DNA of 30,192 bases. Origin: a virus (lineage: Duplodnaviria; Heunggongvirae; Uroviricota; Caudoviricetes). Below are positions 619 to 28,823 of this stretch, in pieces (the first letter of the stretch is position 1; the number at the start of each line of letters is the position of its first letter). The stretch is from IMG/VR virus record IMGVR_UViG_3300029071_000017; one strand, written 5' to 3'. The notes beneath the pieces are model-generated. The model ran no database searches. It was given only the letters and a program-made list of their open reading frames with translations, and was not told the DNA's origin. Made by a program: the position numbers and the translations under genes.

Positions 619-678
619 TCCTCACGCTCCAGAAACGACAAAACCGCCCTGAGGCGGTTTCACATAAAACGTTTTTCA

Positions 679-15051: not shown

Positions 15052-15542
15052 TACTCCTCCTGCTGTAATTCCTCCTCATCATCCGCACCTGCTTCAGTCA
15101 CCCGCAGGGCTATCTGATCGCGCAGATCATCAATAATGGACTGAACACGGCTCACAGCGGCAGGCTGCAGGCCGCAGTCACGTTCAAGAATATCCGGTAA
15201 TGTCTCCAGCACCTGCACGACCGCTTTTGCCCAGATGGCAAACTCCCGTCTGACATCACTGGCCGGAATGAGTTGTGCCGTTTCCTGTTCGAACTTAAGA
15301 CGCTCACGTTCAGACTGATACCAGGCTTTGCGTTCATGTGGATCCATTTCGCCCTCAGCAACCGGCGGTGGTAACCCCATAAATTCAGTCAGAATATCGG
15401 TCAACCGGTATAGCTTGAGTTTGTCATGTCCACCAGCGGGACGAATGTTTTTCAGTCTTGCCACGACAGTCTGGCGGTGCAGACCAGATAAAGCCGCCAG
15501 TTGATTAATATTCAGCACCAGGTTTTTCAACTCATGATCCAT
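15051..15542 (-). CDS. Terminase small subunit (Nu1-like, N-terminal HTH)
   Basis: 163-aa ORF, N-terminal LNINQLAALSGLHRQTVVARL HTH, acidic C-terminus; first gene downstream of cos. Confidence 0.75.
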   Translation of the reverse strand: MDHELKNLVLNINQLAALSGLHRQTVVARLKNIRPAGGHDKLKLYRLTDILTEFMGLPPPVAEGEMDPHERKAWYQSERERLKFEQETAQLIPASDVRREFAIWAKAVVQVLETLPDILERDCGLQPAAVSRVQSIIDDLRDQIALRVTEAGADDEEELQQEE

Positions 15543-17101: not shown

Positions 17102-17437
17102 TTACTCCTTCGAGCTACCAAATTTGTTACCGATTACTCGCATTGCAGCCCCACGAATAGCATCGACACCGATCAGCCCAACGCCGCCACCAATGGCAAC
17201 AGAAAGAGATTTAGGCCATCCGACATACTCAAGAGCGGATGCAAAAGTCAGCGTCAGAGCACCACAGAGCAAAATCTCGAGCGTTTTTCGCTTCCAGCCA
17301 CCACCACCGCCAAAATAGGCAATGCGCAAGCCAGCCATAACGATCGACATAATCACTGCGCCCAGCGGTGTGTCTCCACGCCACCAGCTCTGAAACAACT
17401 CCAGCCAGTCCGGCCAGGTATTTGGGTTATGAGGCAT
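17102..17437 (-). CDS. Holin (not lambda S type)
   Basis: 111-aa ORF immediately upstream of R with about three hydrophobic segments and a charged C-terminus; first gene after the late terminator. Confidence 0.6.
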   Translation of the reverse strand: MPHNPNTWPDWLELFQSWWRGDTPLGAVIMSIVMAGLRIAYFGGGGGWKRKTLEILLCGALTLTFASALEYVGWPKSLSVAIGGGVGLIGVDAIRGAAMRVIGNKFGSSKE

Positions 17438-17576
17438 TTGTAGTTATCTCTCACCTCGCTGATACAGCAGGTGCAAATTGAGGAAACATCATGTTCCGCA
17501 AATCAGAAGCGGAAACGTCAAAGAAGCCGAGTCAAAGGATAACTGCGGGATAAACCAAGCCCAACGAACAACCAGG

Positions 17577-17611
17577 CCCAGAAACGACAAAACCCGCTCA
17601 TCGGCGGGTTT
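17577..17611 (-). terminator. Candidate late terminator tR' (hairpin plus U-rich tract) upstream of the holin
   Basis: Minus strand: AAACCCGC-CGATGA-GCGGGTTT hairpin followed by TGTCGTTTCTGG. Approximate coordinates. Confidence 0.5.
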
Positions 17612-17703
17612 AAGCTGTGTGGCGAAGTAACCACTCTTAACACATTACATGATAAAATGCGGACCGCGTTAGTAATATTTTTCTCATATATTGGGTTCAC
17701 TAC

Positions 17704-18450
17704 ATGCGACATAATTTTTCTAAAGACACTATAAAAAAATTAGCAGAGCGGGCAGCATTCATTTGTTCAAACCCTTCATGCCCTAGATTGACCATTGGCC
17801 CATCAATTGATGGCAATAAATCAATCAAGACAGGAGTTGCTGCTCACATATGTGCAGCATCTCCTGATGGCCCACGCTATGACATGTCACAATCAGAAAC
17901 AGAAAGGAAGTCAATTAACAATGGCATATGGCTGTGTGCTACTTGTTCTGTATTAATAGATAAGAATCAGGGGCTAGACTATCCGGCACCTGTATTAAGA
18001 AAATGGAAAAAAGATCATGAAAGCCTTATAAGCTCCTGTCTTGAAGGTTCGATTAATATTACCTTCGATGCTTTGAAATATATTCAACAGCATGATGAAA
18101 GAAATCTGGCAAAAAAGATTATAAATGAATTGGATGATAAAGGGGCTTTGTTCGTAGAATATCATCTTGAAAACCCCTGTTTTGTTGCCGAATCACTCAA
18201 AGAGTTAAGAACCTGTTTGACCTCTTTGCTTTCTCAAATCCCAGATGAATCACCTCTATTTATCGTTTGCAAGTCAATTCGAGAAGCATGCCGTTATTAT
18301 ATGAACAACACTTCTAAAGACGCAGGGATTAAAGAGTTAGAATTTTCGTTGGGAGCTGTCAGAAAAATCGTAGGTATCAACGTTAAAAGAATATCAGAAA
18401 CCTACGGGGTTAAACCTAGCCCACAATTATCTACCATAATGCCAGATTAA
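17704..18450 (+). CDS. Moron-encoded protein with HNH-like Cys/His motifs; function unknown
   Basis: 248-aa ORF on the strand opposite to the late genes, AT-rich relative to flanks; N-terminal C-x4-C ... AHI ... NGIWLCATC pattern; own downstream terminator. Confidence 0.6.
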   Translation: MRHNFSKDTIKKLAERAAFICSNPSCPRLTIGPSIDGNKSIKTGVAAHICAASPDGPRYDMSQSETERKSINNGIWLCATCSVLIDKNQGLDYPAPVLRKWKKDHESLISSCLEGSINITFDALKYIQQHDERNLAKKIINELDDKGALFVEYHLENPCFVAESLKELRTCLTSLLSQIPDESPLFIVCKSIREACRYYMNNTSKDAGIKELEFSLGAVRKIVGINVKRISETYGVKPSPQLSTIMPD

Positions 18451-18458
18451 ATCTGTTA

Positions 18459-18500
18459 CGCAGCAACAAAGTTAAACTCTATGTTGCTGCCTTAATTTTA
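18459..18500 (+). terminator. Intrinsic terminator of the moron gene
   Basis: GCAGCAACA-(13 nt loop)-TGTTGCTGC followed by CTTAATTTTATT, right after the moron stop and just downstream of the Q stop. Approximate coordinates. Confidence 0.6.
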
Positions 18501-18863
18501 TTACTCCATTTCTAAACGAATATCCAGCATCGAGAGACAACCATCTATAAACCCTTCAGCCAACTGTATCTCTATACGTATCAATTTCTCATCTTTTTTG
18601 TATGCTTTTGCTATCTTCCTTTTCGAGATGCCATACAGGTAATGAGCCACAATCAGAGAGTGCTCATATGGTTTTCTCTTCTTAAGAAGAGCAAGACAAC
18701 CTTCAATAATTAATGCATCACTATCTGAACAAGCCTGACGTGTTTTGCTTGTATAGGGAAGAAGCCCTTTAAACCCAGCAGCTATAGGAGAATAGTCTAC
18801 TCCAGAACTATCACTCGCCGCCCATGCTCCCCAACGATCCAGAACCATCTGAATATCACGCAT
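18501..18863 (-). CDS. Late antiterminator Q (phage 82 / QuuD-like type)
   Basis: ORF 18501-18878; start set at MRDIQMVLDRWGAWAA... with GGAG upstream; C-terminal ...EGFIDGCLSMLDIRLEM resembles 82-type Q proteins as I recall them. Confidence 0.7.
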   Translation of the reverse strand: MRDIQMVLDRWGAWAASDSSGVDYSPIAAGFKGLLPYTSKTRQACSDSDALIIEGCLALLKKRKPYEHSLIVAHYLYGISKRKIAKAYKKDEKLIRIEIQLAEGFIDGCLSMLDIRLEME

Positions 18864-18880
18864 CAACTTTCTCCACAAAA

Positions 18881-19099: not shown

Positions 19100-19184
19100 N
19101 NNNNNNNNNNNNNNNNNNNNNNNNNNNNNNNNNNNNNNNNNNNNNNNNNNNNNNNNNNNNNNNNNNNNNNNNNNNNNNNNNNNN
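19100..19184. other. Assembly gap (85 N)
   Basis: Run of n characters in the sequence. Confidence 1.
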
Positions 19185-21399: not shown

Positions 21400-21893
21400 T
21401 ACGCCCCCACGTAATTCCCTGACAGATACCACTCATCACTCGATACAGCGCGCTTGCTGCTTTTCCGTAAACACAGCTCACGACGCGCCAGAAAATTGTT
21501 TCGTTCTGGCTGGGAGTGGCTTTCACGGAATGCCGCCATCCACACGGTTGCAGCACGACGGTATAAGCCCCTGGACTCCAGTTCTTCAGCCTGGCGGGTC
21601 AGGCACAAAATCACCCGTGGATCGTTAGTGCCGACATAGAAATTGCGCACAGGTCTGGTTTCTCGAACTGGTTGTGGTTCCGGTTCCTGCGCTCTCTCAG
21701 TCAGGCGCGGGAAATGTCTGCGTGTATCTCCTTCACAACGGTGAGCCACACGCCCACTCTGACGTAACTTGCTTGCAGACTGCAGAACGCGCTGCCGTGA
21801 GTAACCTGCAAAAGCATCCGCAATGTCTCCGGAAGTACACCCCGGATGGGCTTCAATGCATTTCTGAACGTCATTTAACAGACTCATGATCAC
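21399..21893 (-). CDS. PerC-like transcriptional regulator
   Basis: 164-aa ORF; C-terminal half ...QAEELESRGLYRRAATVWMAAF...RRELCL resembles the PerC/Pch signature as I recall it; translationally coupled to the replication initiator. Confidence 0.4.
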   Translation of the reverse strand: MIMSLLNDVQKCIEAHPGCTSGDIADAFAGYSRQRVLQSASKLRQSGRVAHRCEGDTRRHFPRLTERAQEPEPQPVRETRPVRNFYVGTNDPRVILCLTRQAEELESRGLYRRAATVWMAAFRESHSQPERNNFLARRELCLRKSSKRAVSSDEWYLSGNYVGA

Positions 21894-22846
21894 CCTCTGA
21901 ATCCTGCCGGGATCTGGCTGTAGTCCACGTTGTCGTAACTGGCTTTGAAGTACGGGTCCTCGCGTTTTTCGGTGTACGTGCTGACGGACGGCGATAAGCG
22001 CAGGGAAAGCTCATCCCATTTTTCCCGCAGCTTCGACGGGCTGAGCACGTTACGGCACCAGAACGGATCGCGGCTGACACGGCTGTACATCTCGCAGATT
22101 TGTTTGTGAGTACGCCCATCCTGTACACACATCAGGCGAATTTCGTTTGCCCAGGCTGTCCAGTTCGGTTCTTTGGGACGAACCACCTCGCCGTCACATT
22201 CGGCAGCCTGCTCGTACAGGGCGATGATTTTTTTCCAGAGCCACTGTGCGCAGGTCAAATCATCCTGCGTCCCCCACTGGCGCTTTTTAGGGCTGAATAC
22301 AACCGCATCAGGATGGCGAGTTAAAAAATCCTGTTCAGCCGTCTGCGTGTCCGGTTGCGAAGCGTCCGGACGAGAAGGTTTTTTATCTGACGGATCATGT
22401 TTTGATTTTACTGACGGATCCCCGCCAGATTCTGACGGGTGAAAACCCGCTTTTTTGCCAGATTTCGACGCATCAAATTTTGACGGGTCAGATTTTGATG
22501 CGTCAGATTTTGATGCGTCAGATTTTGACGGGTCAGAATCTGACAGTTGAGAAAATGCCGCTGCCTGAAGCTTCGCAACGTTAAGCTGATAAACATTCGA
22601 CGCATTGCGGTTACCCTGGCGACGCGCCTTACGCGTTAACCAGCCTTCTGCTTCCAGCCGTGCGATAGCCGTTCTGACGGTACTCATCCCCGCGCCAATC
22701 TGACGGGCAATGGTTTCAATTGATGGCCAGCACACACCTTCGTCATTACTGAAATCAGCCAGGCGGGCCATAATTGCCACGCTGGATAACTTCATGCCTG
22801 ATGCAGCGCAACCATCCCATACATAGCCGGTTAATTTAGTGCTCAT
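21890..22846 (-). CDS. Replication initiator (O-like) with HTH N-terminus and iteron-encoded SKSDA repeats
   Basis: 318-aa ORF; N-terminal HTH-like region; central SKSDASKSDASKSDPSKFDASKS repeats encoded by tandem 15-bp DNA repeats; position after the cro/cII-like genes. Confidence 0.65.
   Translation of the reverse strand: MSTKLTGYVWDGCAASGMKLSSVAIMARLADFSNDEGVCWPSIETIARQIGAGMSTVRTAIARLEAEGWLTRKARRQGNRNASNVYQLNVAKLQAAAFSQLSDSDPSKSDASKSDASKSDPSKFDASKSGKKAGFHPSESGGDPSVKSKHDPSDKKPSRPDASQPDTQTAEQDFLTRHPDAVVFSPKKRQWGTQDDLTCAQWLWKKIIALYEQAAECDGEVVRPKEPNWTAWANEIRLMCVQDGRTHKQICEMYSRVSRDPFWCRNVLSPSKLREKWDELSLRLSPSVSTYTEKREDPYFKASYDNVDYSQIPAGFRG
22426..22548. repeat. Origin-like iteron array: about 7 tandem 15-bp repeats CAGATTTTGAYGSGT inside the initiator gene
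   Basis: Direct repeats read in the sequence (cagattctgacgggt, cagatttcgacgcat, caaattttgacgggt, cagattttgatgcgt x2, cagattttgacgggt, cagaatctgacagtt). Approximate coordinates. Confidence 0.65.
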
Positions 22847-27343: not shown

Positions 27344-27693
27344 TGGAGCCATACAGCCTCACACTCGATGAGGCCTGTCATTTTCTCAAGATATCCAGAC
27401 CGACTGCCATTAACTGGATACGCACAGGGCGTCTTCAGGCAACACGCAAAGATCCCACTAAGAATAAATCTCCTTACCTCACAACACGACAAGCCTGCAT
27501 TGCGGCTCTTCAGTCTCCGCTGCATACTGTCCAGGTGAGCGCGGGTGATGGCATAACAGAGGAAAGAAAATGTCACTCTTCCGCAGAGGTGAAATATGGT
27601 ACGCCAGTTTCACATTGCCGAACGGTAAAAGATTTAAACAGTCTCTTGGAACAAAGGACAAAAGGCAGGCGACAGAACTCCATGACAAGCTAA
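27343..27693 (+). CDS. xis: Excisionase (P22-type)
   Basis: ORF 27259-27693; start set at [38 protein letters not shown], which resembles P22 Xis as I recall it; immediately upstream of and overlapping int. Confidence 0.75.
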
Positions 27694-28733
27694 AGGCTGA
27701 AGCATGGCGGGTCAGCAAACTTGGTGAAATACCTGATATAACGTTCGAGGAAGCGTGTGTCAGGTGGCTTGAAGAGAAAGCACATAAAAAATCACTGGAC
27801 GATGACAAAAGCCGGATCGGATTCTGGCTTCAACATTTCGCAGGAATGCAACTAAGAGACATTACTGAATCAAAAATTTATTCAGCAATGCAGAAAATGA
27901 CGAACCGGCGTCATGAGGAAAACTGGAAACTCAGGGCAGAAGCATGCAGAAAAAAAGGGAAACCTGTTCCAGAATACACGCCAAAACCAGCGTCCGTTGC
28001 AACGAAGGCTACGCATCTTTCATTTATAAAGGCCCTACTAAGAGCCGCAGAGCGTGAATGGAAAATGCTGGATAAGGCACCAATTATTAAAGTGCCTCAA
28101 CCAAAGAATAAACGGATCCGCTGGCTGGAGCCCCATGAAGCACAAAGGCTGATTGATGAATGTCCGGAGCCATTAAAGTCTGTTGTTGAATTTGCACTGG
28201 CAACAGGCTTAAGACGCTCGAACATCATCAACCTTGAATGGCAACAAATAGATATGCAGCGCCGGGTGGCATGGATAAACCCGGAAGAGAGTAAATCAAA
28301 CCGCGCAATTGGCGTTGCGCTGAATGATACTGCATGTCGCGTATTGAAAAAACAAATCGGGAATCATCACCGTTGGGTATTTGTGTACAAGGAAAGCTGT
28401 ACCAAACCAGACGGAACGAAAGCGCCAACAGTAAGGAAGATGCGGTATGACGCAAACACAGCCTGGAAAGCGGCGCTGAGACGGGCTGGTATTGATGATT
28501 TCAGATTTCACGACTTGAGACACACCTGGGCAAGTTGGCTGGTTCAAGCCGGAGTCCCGTTGTCAGTGTTACAGGAAATGGGAGGCTGGGAGTCTATCGA
28601 AATGGTTCGTCGATATGCTCACCTTGCACCTAATCACCTTACCGAACACGCACGGCAAATAGACTCGATCCTGAACCCATCGGTCCCAAATTTGTCCCAG
28701 TCAAAAAATAAGGAAGGTACTAATGATGTGTAA
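27570..28733 (+). CDS. int: Tyrosine integrase (P22 Int-like)
   Basis: 387-aa [51 protein letters not shown]...; C-terminal R...HDLRHTWAS...MVRRYAHL catalytic signature; ends 14 nt before the tRNA 3' end. Confidence 0.9.
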
Positions 28734-28747
28734 CTTATTGATTTAAA

Positions 28748-28823
28748 TGGTGCCGATAATAGGAGTCGAACCTACGACCTTCGCATTACGAATGCGCTGC
28801 TCTACCAACTGAGCTATATCGGC
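28748..28823 (-). tRNA. thrW: tRNA-Thr (anticodon CGU), thrW-type; prophage attachment site at its 3' end
   Basis: Reverse complement reads GCCGATATAGCTCAGTTGGTAGAGCAGCGCATTCGTAATGCGAAGGTCGTAGGTTCGACTCCTATTATCGGCACCA: 7-bp acceptor stem, CGT anticodon in a 7-nt loop, T-arm GGTTCGACTCC, 3' CCA. Coordinates within 1 bp. Confidence 0.9.

What the first reader, a model, noticed from the sequence alone, without database searches (positions are those of the whole stretch)
17577..17611. Candidate tR' late terminator that shares a 17-nt identical flank with a second hairpin module at 620-660
On the late-gene strand, upstream of the holin and downstream of the moron, there is an 8-bp GC-cored hairpin (AAACCCGC/GCGGGTTT) followed by TGTCGTTTCTGG. 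The same 17-nt flank (+ strand CCAGAAACGACAAAACC) precedes a second analogous hairpin between I and J. Exact 17-nt identity is unlikely by chance in 30 kb, so these are copies of one terminator/attenuator module, probably read through by Q-modified RNA polymerase. This element plus the upstream ~90 bp should hold pR' and the Q utilisation site; I could not confidently read the promoter hexamers.
Basis: seen in the sequence. Interest (0 to 1): 0.5.

Follow-up and report, generated by a model that had tools for sequence, protein, structure and literature searches.

The report
Late-gene terminator of a lambdoid prophage
The hairpin is very probably the ordinary "stop unless Q is present" terminator (tR') that sits just after the late promoter of an E. 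coli lambda-like prophage. The 17 bases it shares with a second hairpin are a common terminator tail, not evidence of a duplicated module.

Summary
The exact 17-mer occurs at 629-645 and 17578-17594. On the late (-) strand each copy is the last two stem bases plus the T-rich tail of a GC hairpin.

Site 2 (hairpin 17590-17611) is the 3' end of a compact unit of about 95 bp (17578-17672). The unit holds a -10 hexamer, a palindrome in the promoter spacer, a conserved start region and the terminator.
- In phage 1720a-02 this unit lies directly after the Q gene. In the window a 0.8-kb opposite-strand cargo gene separates it from Q.
- Across 75 non-redundant relatives the spacer palindrome matches the Q21-family Q clade one-to-one, although Q lies 27-3780 nt away. 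The tail after the hairpin is shuffled among clades.
- This supports pR' + Q-binding element + tR', with a predicted terminated RNA of about 48 nt.

Site 1 is the lambda I-J intergenic hairpin. Lambda itself has it with two tail differences.

"Copies of one module" is not supported. The stems and flanks differ. The same tail follows dozens of unrelated hairpins in other phages and in many bacterial phyla. Each site also occurs without the other.

No transcription was tested here. This is an ordinary, unannotated member of a known kind.

The parts
17590..17611 (-). tR' terminator hairpin: AAACCCGC / loop CGATGA / GCGGGTTT
   Evidence: The hairpin is kept, with different stem sequences, in diverged relatives.
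17578..17589 (-). T-rich tail TGTCGTTTCTGG. With the last 5 stem bases it forms the shared 17-mer (17578-17594). Release is predicted at about 17586-17589.
   Evidence: This tail type (T1) is one of three alternative tails found after the same hairpin.
17627..17639 (-). Conserved start-region block TAAGAGTGGTTAC. It contains the predicted transcription start (about 17635) and a candidate sigma-dependent pause element, AAGAGT.
   Evidence: The block is kept as TAAGAGTrGTyAC in relatives whose downstream leader differs. Those relatives were retrieved with that very pattern, so the conservation is partly by construction. The resemblance to lambda AACGATGGGTTAATTCGC was seen by eye only, and MAFFT did not align the two. 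The pause function is an inference.
17642..17647 (-). Predicted pR' -10 hexamer TAATGT
   Evidence: A TAnnnT hexamer at this exact position was seen in every variant read by eye among the 75 module variants listed. In other clades it pairs with a good -35: TTTACA with a 16-nt spacer, or TTTACG in K-12 DLP12.
17659..17667 (-). Q-clade-specific palindrome GCGGTCCGC in the promoter spacer; predicted Q-binding element
   Evidence: One-to-one association with the Q clade in 75 of 75 non-redundant modules. Its position matches the Q-binding site of Q21 and Q-lambda, between -35 and -10 (PMC6606751).
17666..17672 (-). Weak -35-like region CTAACGC, preceded by an A-rich patch (17673-17685)
   Evidence: Conserved as yTAACGCG in the Qa and Qb clades. 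It matches the consensus poorly and was not called by the scan.
17586..17635 (-). Predicted short pR'-tR' transcript of about 47-50 nt: a possible weak 5-bp hairpin, a single-stranded CACAGCUUA, then the terminator
   Evidence: Fold. The ends are inferred, not mapped. No Rfam family matches.
18501..18878 (-). Q antiterminator gene, Q21 family
   Evidence: PF06530 at 6.6e-52. Distant match to the Q21 structures 6P18 and 6JNX, E = 2e-4. The family assignment follows PMC9388147.
17704..18450 (+). Opposite-strand cargo gene inserted between Q and pR' (248 aa). It is followed by the hairpin GCAGCAAC/GTTGCTGC at 18460-18490.
   Evidence: It is absent in phage 1720a-02, where the unit abuts Q. PADLOC matches: PDC-M68A at 7.5e-27 and HNH effector domains.
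17102..17437 (-). Lambda-family holin, the first late gene downstream of tR'
   Evidence: PF05106; RefSeq annotation.
629..660 (-). I-J intergenic terminator-like hairpin (641-660) plus tail (629-640). It lies 18 nt after the stop of I and 10 nt before the J ATG (618).
   Evidence: Its orthologue lies in the lambda I-J gap (J02459 15445-15504), has the tail GGTTTTGTCATTTATGG and is not annotated there.

Best explanation
Site 2 is tR', the intrinsic terminator that ends the short constitutive transcript of the late promoter pR' of a lambdoid prophage with a Q21-family antiterminator.

Proposed mechanism:
1. RNA polymerase starts at about 17635 (- strand) from a -10 hexamer, TAATGT.
2. It transcribes a leader of about 24 nt.
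3. Without Q, it terminates at the AAACCCGC/GCGGGTTT hairpin and U-rich tail. This gives an RNA of about 48 nt and keeps the holin and the roughly 17 kb of lysis, head and tail genes silent in the lysogen.
4. When Q (18501-18878) is made, it binds the GCGGTCCGC palindrome in the promoter spacer and loads onto polymerase paused in the conserved TAAGAGTGGTTAC start region.
5. The modified polymerase then ignores this terminator and later ones, including the I-J hairpin at 629-660.

The 17 bases shared by the two hairpins are the stem end plus a very common intrinsic-terminator tail. The two sites are independent terminators, not duplicates.

Shown here: the sequence anatomy, the conservation, the co-variation with Q and the distribution of the tail. 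Inferred: the transcription start, pausing, Q binding, termination and read-through.
For: 1. The anatomy is that of a - strand terminator.

2. In Stx2 phage 1720a-02 the same unit (GCGGTCCGCA, 27 nt, GTTAAGAGTGGTTACTTCGCCACACAGCTTAAACCCGCC..GGCGGGTTTT) begins within 10 nt of the Q stop codon.

3. Of 133 units in viral contigs, 115 have a Q21-family ORF upstream on the same strand, at 27-38 nt or at 525-3780 nt.

4. The spacer motif and the Q clade pair one-to-one in 75 of 75 non-redundant units:
- Qa with GCGGTCCGC
- Qb with GCGTACGC
- Qc with TGTTATAACA
- Qd with TTTACAATCGTAAA
The tail types T1, T2 and T3 are mixed among clades. The element therefore travels with the promoter yet tracks Q, as a Q-binding site should.

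5. The element sits where the Q21 and Q-lambda binding sites lie, between -35 and -10 (PMC6606751).

6. A TAnnnT hexamer was seen at a fixed position in every variant read by eye, and clade Qd and K-12 DLP12 have a good -35 (TTTACA, TTTACG) at 16-17 nt.

7. Diverged relatives keep a GC hairpin plus T run with different stem sequences, and two stem pairs show compensatory changes.

8. The unit lies upstream of lysis genes here, in SfIV and in K-12 DLP12, between nmpC and essD. Q-dependent control of the DLP12 lysis cassette is reported in Rueggeberg 2013, as cited in PMC7918800.

9. For the tail:
- Three permuted controls gave 11-14 loci and 0-1 hairpins.
- A near variant gave 10 hairpin contexts.
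- Of 118 hits in one-genome-per-species contigs, 73 follow unrelated hairpins in many phyla.
Against: - No transcript ends, pausing, Q binding or termination were measured.
- The -35 in this clade is poor and the promoter scan did not call the site.
- The U tract is short (UUUU, then GUCGUUUCU), so termination may be incomplete.
- With the proposed start, the candidate pause element AAGAGT lies at -3 to +3, closer to the -10 than in lambda. The pause geometry is therefore uncertain.
- The Q-binding element here is a palindrome, whereas Q21's is a direct repeat of TGAGCA.
- Q and pR' lie close together, so linkage could contribute to the co-variation, although the adjacent tails are shuffled.
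- In DLP12 a reporter paper places its -121 primer about 470 nt upstream of the unit, implying another mapped start site upstream.
Confidence: 0.8

Rival explanations
1. The two hairpins are copies of one dispersed terminator/attenuator module, arising by duplication, gene conversion or a mobile cassette.
For: The 17-nt identity is exact and in the same register relative to a hairpin. Only 2% of simulated windows show any direct 17-mer repeat. In other phages the same tail sits at junctions between different upstream and downstream blocks, which fits recombination at terminators.
Against: - Identity ends at the 17-mer; the stems, loops and flanks differ.
- Each site has its own orthologues. 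The lambda I-J hairpin has 2 tail differences, and the tR' unit occurs with three alternative tails.
- HannyBb has the identical I-J site but no second copy of the tail.
- The SfIV lysis region carries the tR' unit with a near-identical tail.
- The tail follows unrelated hairpins in Alpha-, Beta- and Gammaproteobacteria, Actinobacteria, Planctomycetes and other phyla, which common descent cannot explain.
Confidence: 0.12
2. pR' lies directly after Q (18450-18500). The hairpin then ends a transcript of about 900 nt that runs antisense through the cargo gene, or it merely insulates the holin from read-through of early or Q transcription.
For: In lambda, pR' follows Q immediately. The hairpin would stop any non-antiterminated polymerase coming from upstream, so an insulating role is not excluded. 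DLP12 seems to have a further start site upstream of the unit.
Against: - When cargo is inserted, the Q-specific element and the conserved -10 stay next to the hairpin, not next to Q.
- In 1720a-02 the whole unit fits between the Q stop and the hairpin.
- The scan found no promoter-like site at 18450-18500, and that gap holds a hairpin, seen by eye, that looks like the terminator of the convergent cargo gene.
Confidence: 0.07
3. The main selected product is the short RNA itself: a trans-acting small RNA made from pR' to tR', analogous to StxS of Stx phages.
For: StxS shows that pR'-tR' by-products can become Hfq-dependent regulators (PMC7547250). The leader is nearly invariant across four Q clades whose promoter spacers differ. 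It is present in at least 1005 of 5426 complete E. coli genomes.
Against: - The leader was the search anchor, so its invariance is partly by construction.
- More distant relatives keep only the first ~13 nt and a short CUUA motif seen by eye.
- The RNA would be only about 48 nt with a 4-U tail, which is poor for Hfq.
- There is no Rfam match.
- StxS belongs to a different Q type (144 aa) and comes from a 258-nt transcript.
Confidence: 0.15
4. The 17-mer match is pure coincidence and the hairpins have no function.
For: The window also has an unrelated exact 17-nt inverted match, so matches of this length do occur by chance.
Against: Both hairpins are conserved in position across many phages. 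Both have the full terminator anatomy on the coding strand of the late operon.
Confidence: 0.03

Closest known systems
Phage lambda late control region: Q, pR', qut and tR' (6S RNA)
   Same: A Q gene is followed by a constitutive promoter, a Q-binding site in the promoter spacer, a conserved start region and an intrinsic terminator ahead of the holin gene S. The start region resembles lambda's by eye (AAGAGTGGTTACTTCGC against AACGATGGGTTAATTCGC).
   Different: Q belongs to a different family (PF06530, not PF03589). The terminated RNA would be about 48 nt rather than 194 nt. A cargo gene separates Q from pR'. Lambda's tR' tail (GGGATTTTTTATATCTG) is different.
Phage 21 Q21 / pR'21 (structures 6P18, 6JNX)
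   Same: Same Pfam family of Q, and the Q-binding site lies between -35 and -10.
   Different: The Q proteins are only distantly related (E = 2e-4; 125 aa against 162 aa). The Q21 site is a direct repeat of TGAGCA, whereas here every clade has a palindrome.
E. coli K-12 DLP12 quuD - nmpC - essD region
   Same: Same unit, with the palindrome TTTACGTACGTAAA, -10 TATGCT, an identical leader and the same hairpin. It lies upstream of the holin gene, with an opposite-strand cargo gene (nmpC) between Q and the unit. Q-dependent expression of this lysis cassette is reported in Rueggeberg 2013, cited in PMC7918800; I could not read that paper.
   Different: Different Q clade and palindrome, and a different tail (TTTTTCCATTTTTTGAG). 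The prophage is defective.
StxS small RNA of Stx phages (PMC7547250)
   Same: A short RNA made between pR' and tR' in lysogens.
   Different: A different Q type (144 aa). StxS comes from a 258-nt precursor processed to 74 nt and has demonstrated Hfq binding. No sequence relation was tested or seen.
Lambda I-J intergenic hairpin (in the J02459 gap 15445-15504)
   Same: Site 1 is its direct orthologue. The region is 94% identical and has the same stem.
   Different: The loop differs (TCAG against TGCG) and the tail differs at two bases. It is not annotated in the lambda record, and I found no description of it in the papers searched.

Membership tests
Intrinsic (Rho-independent) terminator | GC-rich stem-loop on the transcribed strand | tested here: met
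   Both sites have 8-bp stems with 5 G-C pairs, dG -11.5 and -12.2 kcal/mol.
Intrinsic (Rho-independent) terminator | U-rich tract immediately 3' of the stem | tested here: met
   UUUUGUCGUUUCU has 9 U in 13 but only 4 consecutive. It passes the scan's criterion. The other tail types after the same hairpin have 6-8 T.
Intrinsic (Rho-independent) terminator | Hairpin kept in relatives despite sequence change | tested here: met
   Diverged units use the stems CCTCGC/GCGGGG, CCCTGCCA/TGGTGGGG and CCTCAC/GTGGGG. Two aligned pairs show changes on both sides.
Intrinsic (Rho-independent) terminator | Transcripts actually end there | not testable with these tools
   Needs 3' end mapping or in vitro transcription.
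Lambdoid Q-dependent late control unit (pR' - Q-binding site - pause element - tR') | Lies between a Q gene and the lysis genes, on the same strand | tested here: met
   Q is at 18501-18878 and the holin at 17102-17437. Of 133 related units, 115 have a Q21-family ORF upstream.
Lambdoid Q-dependent late control unit (pR' - Q-binding site - pause element - tR') | Sigma-70 promoter just upstream of the terminator | tested here: inconclusive
   A conserved TAnnnT hexamer sits at a fixed position, and other clades have a good -35. In this clade the -35 is weak and the scan made no call.
Lambdoid Q-dependent late control unit (pR' - Q-binding site - pause element - tR') | DNA site specific to its own Q, between -35 and -10 | tested here: met
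   The spacer motif and the Q clade pair one-to-one in 75 of 75 units, independent of distance and of tail type. Binding itself was not tested.
Lambdoid Q-dependent late control unit (pR' - Q-binding site - pause element - tR') | -10-like pause element in the initially transcribed region | tested here: inconclusive
   The block TAAGAGTGGTyAC recurs in diverged units, though they were retrieved with that pattern. AAGAGT has the A2 and T6 of a -10, like lambda AACGAT, but its spacing from the -10 is unusual.
Lambdoid Q-dependent late control unit (pR' - Q-binding site - pause element - tR') | Q-dependent read-through of the terminator | not testable with these tools
   Only indirect support from the literature on DLP12, as cited in PMC7918800.
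   Identity is limited to 17 nt; the stems, loops and flanks differ.
   The same tail follows at least 39 different hairpins in viral contigs and 73 in genomes of many phyla.
   HannyBb has the exact I-J copy only. The tR' unit occurs with three different tails. Only a few genomes were examined.
StxS-type small RNA derived from pR' | Homology to StxS, or a stable chaperone-bound RNA | not tested
   No Rfam match. StxS accompanies a different Q type. Expression and Hfq binding cannot be tested here.

The most novel reading that the evidence does not exclude
The compact pR'-tR' unit may be more than a switch. It would be a portable late-control cassette found in about a fifth or more of complete E. 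coli genomes, including K-12 DLP12. On this reading:
- its Q21-family antiterminators recognise clade-specific palindromes, a symmetric binding mode unlike the direct-repeat site of Q21;
- the junction between Q and its promoter is a preferred landing site for defence and other cargo genes;
- the invariant 48-nt leader acts as a trans-acting small RNA, as StxS does.

Separately, the tail UUUUGUCGUUUCUGG may be a near-optimal terminator tail selected convergently across bacteria. For example, it may place a pause-prone YG step about 7 nt after the stem.
Probability: 0.2. Interest if true: 0.55.

Novelty: new member of a known kind. Interest (0 to 1): 0.3.

Why it matters
The element itself is the textbook lambdoid late switch, so it changes nothing conceptually. 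Its practical value is for annotation.
- The unit is unannotated in RefSeq although it is present in at least 1005 of 5426 complete E. coli genomes. It marks where late transcription of these prophages starts, including Stx2 phages such as 1720a-02.
- The one-to-one pairing of Q clade with spacer palindrome gives testable predictions of Q specificity.
- The gap between Q and pR' is a recurrent cargo slot. It holds a candidate HNH defence gene here and nmpC in K-12.
- As a caution for sequence scanning: a 17-nt exact repeat between two terminators need not indicate homology, because terminator tails occupy a small, heavily reused sequence space.

Tried and rejected
- **Rfam.** The whole window at gathering threshold gave only a tRNA at 28751-28823. 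The region at E up to 10 gave only noise hits far below threshold.
- **Literature by sequence.** Searches for the leader, the tail and lambda's I-J tail found nothing relevant.
- **Papers not available.** The Rueggeberg 2013 and 2015 papers on DLP12 are not held. A search for essD with Term-seq found nothing useful. The Q21 structure papers give their DNA sequences only in figures.
- **Alignment to lambda.** MAFFT of the unit against lambda pR' did not align the two. The resemblance in the start region is by eye only and should be treated as a lead.
- **Leader hairpin.** GUGGU/GCCAC is predicted but shows no compensatory changes, and 4 of 27 sequences break one pair. I do not claim it as a structure.
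- **+ strand terminator.** Rejected: only TTT follows the stem on that strand, and no + strand gene ends there.
- **ORF 17518-17712 (-), 64 aa, spanning the unit.** It has no family match and overlaps the conserved non-coding unit, so I treated it as spurious.
- **StxS.** Considered and rejected as the identity of the element: it accompanies a different Q type and has a different transcript length.
- **Simulation error.** A first simulation of repeat frequency was wrong because of the masked N run at 19100-19184 and was redone.
- **Limits of the tail census.** Both the viral and the genome scans stopped at 120 rows. The counts are lower bounds, and the enrichment over a proper terminator-tail background model was estimated only roughly.

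Full report
**1. Observation**

The + strand 17-mer CCAGAAACGACAAAACC occurs exactly twice, at 629-645 and 17578-17594. There are no further matches at up to two mismatches, and it is the only exact direct 17-mer in the window.

On the - strand, which carries the late genes, each copy is the last bases of a GC-rich stem plus a T-rich tail.
- Site 2 is AAACCCGC-CGATGA-GCGGGTTT (17611-17590) followed by TGTCGTTTCTGG. It is the best terminator-like hit in 14-24 kb, with dG -11.5 kcal/mol.
- Site 1 is AAACCGCC-TCAG-GGCGGTTT (660-641) followed by the same tail, with dG -12.2. It lies in the 60-nt gap between I (679-1326) and the J start (618).

Only 2% of 300 Markov simulations of the window contain any exact direct 17-mer. 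However, the window also has an unrelated exact 17-nt inverted match. The match is non-random because of its register with a hairpin, not because of its length.

**2. Context**

The window is an E. coli lambdoid prophage; 19 complete genomes carry this Q-to-lysis region nearly intact. The local order on the - strand is as follows:
- a DUF968 gene;
- Q (18501-18878, PF06530);
- a 248-aa gene on the opposite strand (17704-18450);
- the hairpin;
- the holin (17102-17437, PF05106);
- the endolysin.

PF06530 is the Q21 family (PMC9388147). The protein matches the Q21 structures only distantly, at E = 2e-4.

**3. What site 2 belongs to**

In Stx2 phage 1720a-02, the sequence GCGGTCCGCA, 27 nt, GTTAAGAGTGGTTACTTCGCCACACAGCTTAAACCCGCC..GGCGGGTTTT starts within 10 nt of the Q stop codon. 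In the window, and in SfIV, the same unit lies next to the holin region. The opposite-strand gene is therefore an insertion between Q and this unit.

A scan of viral contigs with the leader sequence gave 133 units in 75 distinct variants.
- Upstream similarity ends about 45 nt before GTTAAGAG.
- Within the unit, a TAnnnT hexamer lies directly before GTTAAGAG in every variant read by eye. It is TAATGT at 17647-17642 in the window.
- About 11 nt upstream of that hexamer lies a short palindrome followed by an A or T run.
- In one clade, and in K-12 DLP12, the palindrome begins with a good -35 (TTTACA or TTTACG) at 16-17 nt from the hexamer.

**4. Co-variation with Q**

Of the 133 units, 115 have a Q21-family ORF upstream on the same strand. 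The Q stop lies 27-38 nt before the leader in 15 cases and 525-3780 nt before it in the rest. In 79 non-redundant units, 75 fall into four Q clades defined by the helix-turn-helix region, and each clade has its own spacer motif without exception:
- Qa with GCGGTCCGC (31 units, including the window);
- Qb with GCGTACGC (30);
- Qc with TGTTATAACA (5);
- Qd with TTTACAATCGTAAA (9).

The tail after the hairpin comes in three types. T1 is TTTTGTCGTTTCT, T2 is TTTTTTGTACCTG and T3 is TTTTTTTATGGCTG. These types are mixed among the Qa and Qb clades.

So an element a few bases from the shuffled tail tracks a protein encoded up to 3.8 kb away. That is what a Q-binding element should do. Its position matches that reported for Q21 and Q-lambda, between -35 and -10 (PMC6606751).

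More distant relatives keep TAAGAGTrGTyAC after the -10 and again have a palindrome (TGTCATGACA, TTCGTTACGAA), but different leaders and different terminator stems. Those relatives were retrieved with that pattern, so its recurrence is partly by construction.

I therefore read the unit as pR' plus a Q-binding element, a start/pause region and tR'. The start would be near 17635 and the terminated RNA about 47-50 nt. The start site, the pause element and all activities are inferred.

**5. Site 1**

The I-J gap is 94% identical to that of lambda. Lambda has the same stem with the loop TGCG and the tail GGTTTTGTCATTTATGG, which differs at two bases. The lambda record does not annotate it. It is a terminator-like hairpin inside the late operon, 10 nt before the J start codon. 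From established knowledge of lambda, the Q-modified late transcript runs through J, so this hairpin must be read through during lytic growth. Its role in lysogens (insulation, or protection of mRNA 3' ends) is unknown.

**6. Is the shared 17-mer a shared module?**

Of its 123 occurrences, 44 were in the tR' unit, 33 in I-J gaps and 46 in other places.
- Of 44 distinct upstream contexts, 39 end in a hairpin.
- Some of the other contexts lie 66-93 nt after Q genes of the Q82 family (PF06323), of PF06530 and of DUF1133 type. Others lie after lysozyme or HNH genes, or in high-GC phages.
- Often the tail runs into ..CTGGAG and a start codon 6-10 nt later.

Controls:
- Three same-composition permutations gave 11-14 loci with 0-1 hairpins.
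- The near variant GGTTTTGTGCTTTCTGG gave 23 loci and 10 hairpin contexts.
- In one-genome-per-species contigs, 73 of 118 hits follow unrelated hairpins in Alpha-, Beta- and Gammaproteobacteria, Actinobacteria, Planctomycetes, Myxococcota and others.

Phage HannyBb has the I-J site identical to the window, a 250-aa protein annotated as Q-like, and no second copy of the tail.

My conclusion is that the tail is a heavily reused, near-consensus terminator tail. The two sites are independent terminators that both carry its commonest form. My rough estimate is an enrichment of about ten-fold over a simple T-rich background. That is within what a consensus sequence of a position-specific tail profile would give, but I did not build such a profile.

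**7. Comparison with known systems**

The unit works like the lambda and phage 21 late switch, and it is the same unit as the one upstream of essD in K-12 DLP12. There it lies at about 577,189-577,289 and nmpC occupies the cargo slot. Q-dependent control of that lysis cassette is reported in Rueggeberg 2013, cited in PMC7918800; I could not read that paper.

StxS (PMC7547250) is the precedent for pR'-tR' RNAs acting as small RNAs. However, it belongs to a different Q type and is much longer. No Rfam family matches. The unit is present in at least 1005 of 5426 complete E. coli genomes, with no annotated feature in any of the 12 sampled records listed.

**8. Verdict**

- The tR'/pR'/qut reading is well supported by comparison, with confidence of about 0.8.
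- The "copies of one module" reading is not supported.
- This is an ordinary, unannotated member of a known kind.

The most interesting by-products are the palindromes specific to each Q clade, the cargo slot between Q and its promoter, and the widely reused terminator tail.

Noticed in passing
window 17704-18450 (+), with flanks 17650-17658 and 18460-18490: The 248-aa gene inserted between Q and pR' has no Pfam or NCBIfam match. It does hit the PADLOC candidate defence family PDC-M68A (7.5e-27) and the N-terminal HNH domain of CBASS-type endonuclease effectors (5e-21). By eye it looks like a self-contained cassette: an extended -10 (TGATAAAAT) on the + strand overlaps the pR' spacer, and the hairpin GCAGCAAC/GTTGCTGC follows its stop codon.
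   Followed up: partly
IMG/VR loci L124-L225; L408 (K-12 574529-576825): In about 100 of 115 related prophages, 0.5-3.8 kb of DNA lies between the Q stop codon and the pR' unit. Only about 15 have the two adjacent. The junction between Q and its promoter looks like a hot spot for cargo insertion. It holds nmpC in K-12 DLP12 and two ORFs in the SfIV region.
   Followed up: partly
window 17659-17667 and the equivalent position in related loci: Every Q21-family clade examined has a different palindrome in the pR' spacer: GCGGTCCGC, GCGTACGC, TGTTATAACA, TTTACAATCGTAAA, TTTACGTACGTAAA, TGTCATGACA or TTCGTTACGAA. The characterised Q21 site is a direct repeat of TGAGCA. This hints at a different, symmetric mode of binding.
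   Followed up: partly
IMG/VR and genome loci L004-L123 and L253-L372: The tail GGTTTTGTCGTTTCTGG follows unrelated GC hairpins in many phages and bacterial phyla, far more often than permuted versions do. It is often followed by AG, giving CTGGAG, and a start codon 6-10 nt later. Why this exact tail is favoured is unexplained.
   Followed up: partly
window 19100-19184: A run of 85 N (masked sequence) lies inside the DUF968-type ORF region upstream of Q. ORF calls across it are unreliable.
   Followed up: no
window 22459-22558: Five tandem 15-bp repeats (CAGATTTTGAYGSGT) lie inside the 318-aa ORF 21890-22846 (-). They look like origin iterons within an O-like replication gene.
   Followed up: no
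window 18101-18117 and 22450-22466: An exact 17-nt inverted match (GAAATCTGGCAAAAAAG) links the cargo gene with the edge of the iteron array. It is probably chance, but it is as long as the repeat in the finding.
   Followed up: no
window 28751-28823 (-): A tRNA gene (Rfam 71.8 bits) lies near the far end of the window, next to the 387-aa ORF 27570-28733. It may mark the prophage integration site.
   Followed up: no
L408 4254-4273 (K-12 576753-576772): A published DLP12 promoter reporter begins at '-121' about 470 nt upstream of the pR'-like unit. This implies that a different start site, reported as RpoE-regulated, was used as +1. Transcripts from it would have to pass the tR' hairpin.
   Followed up: partly
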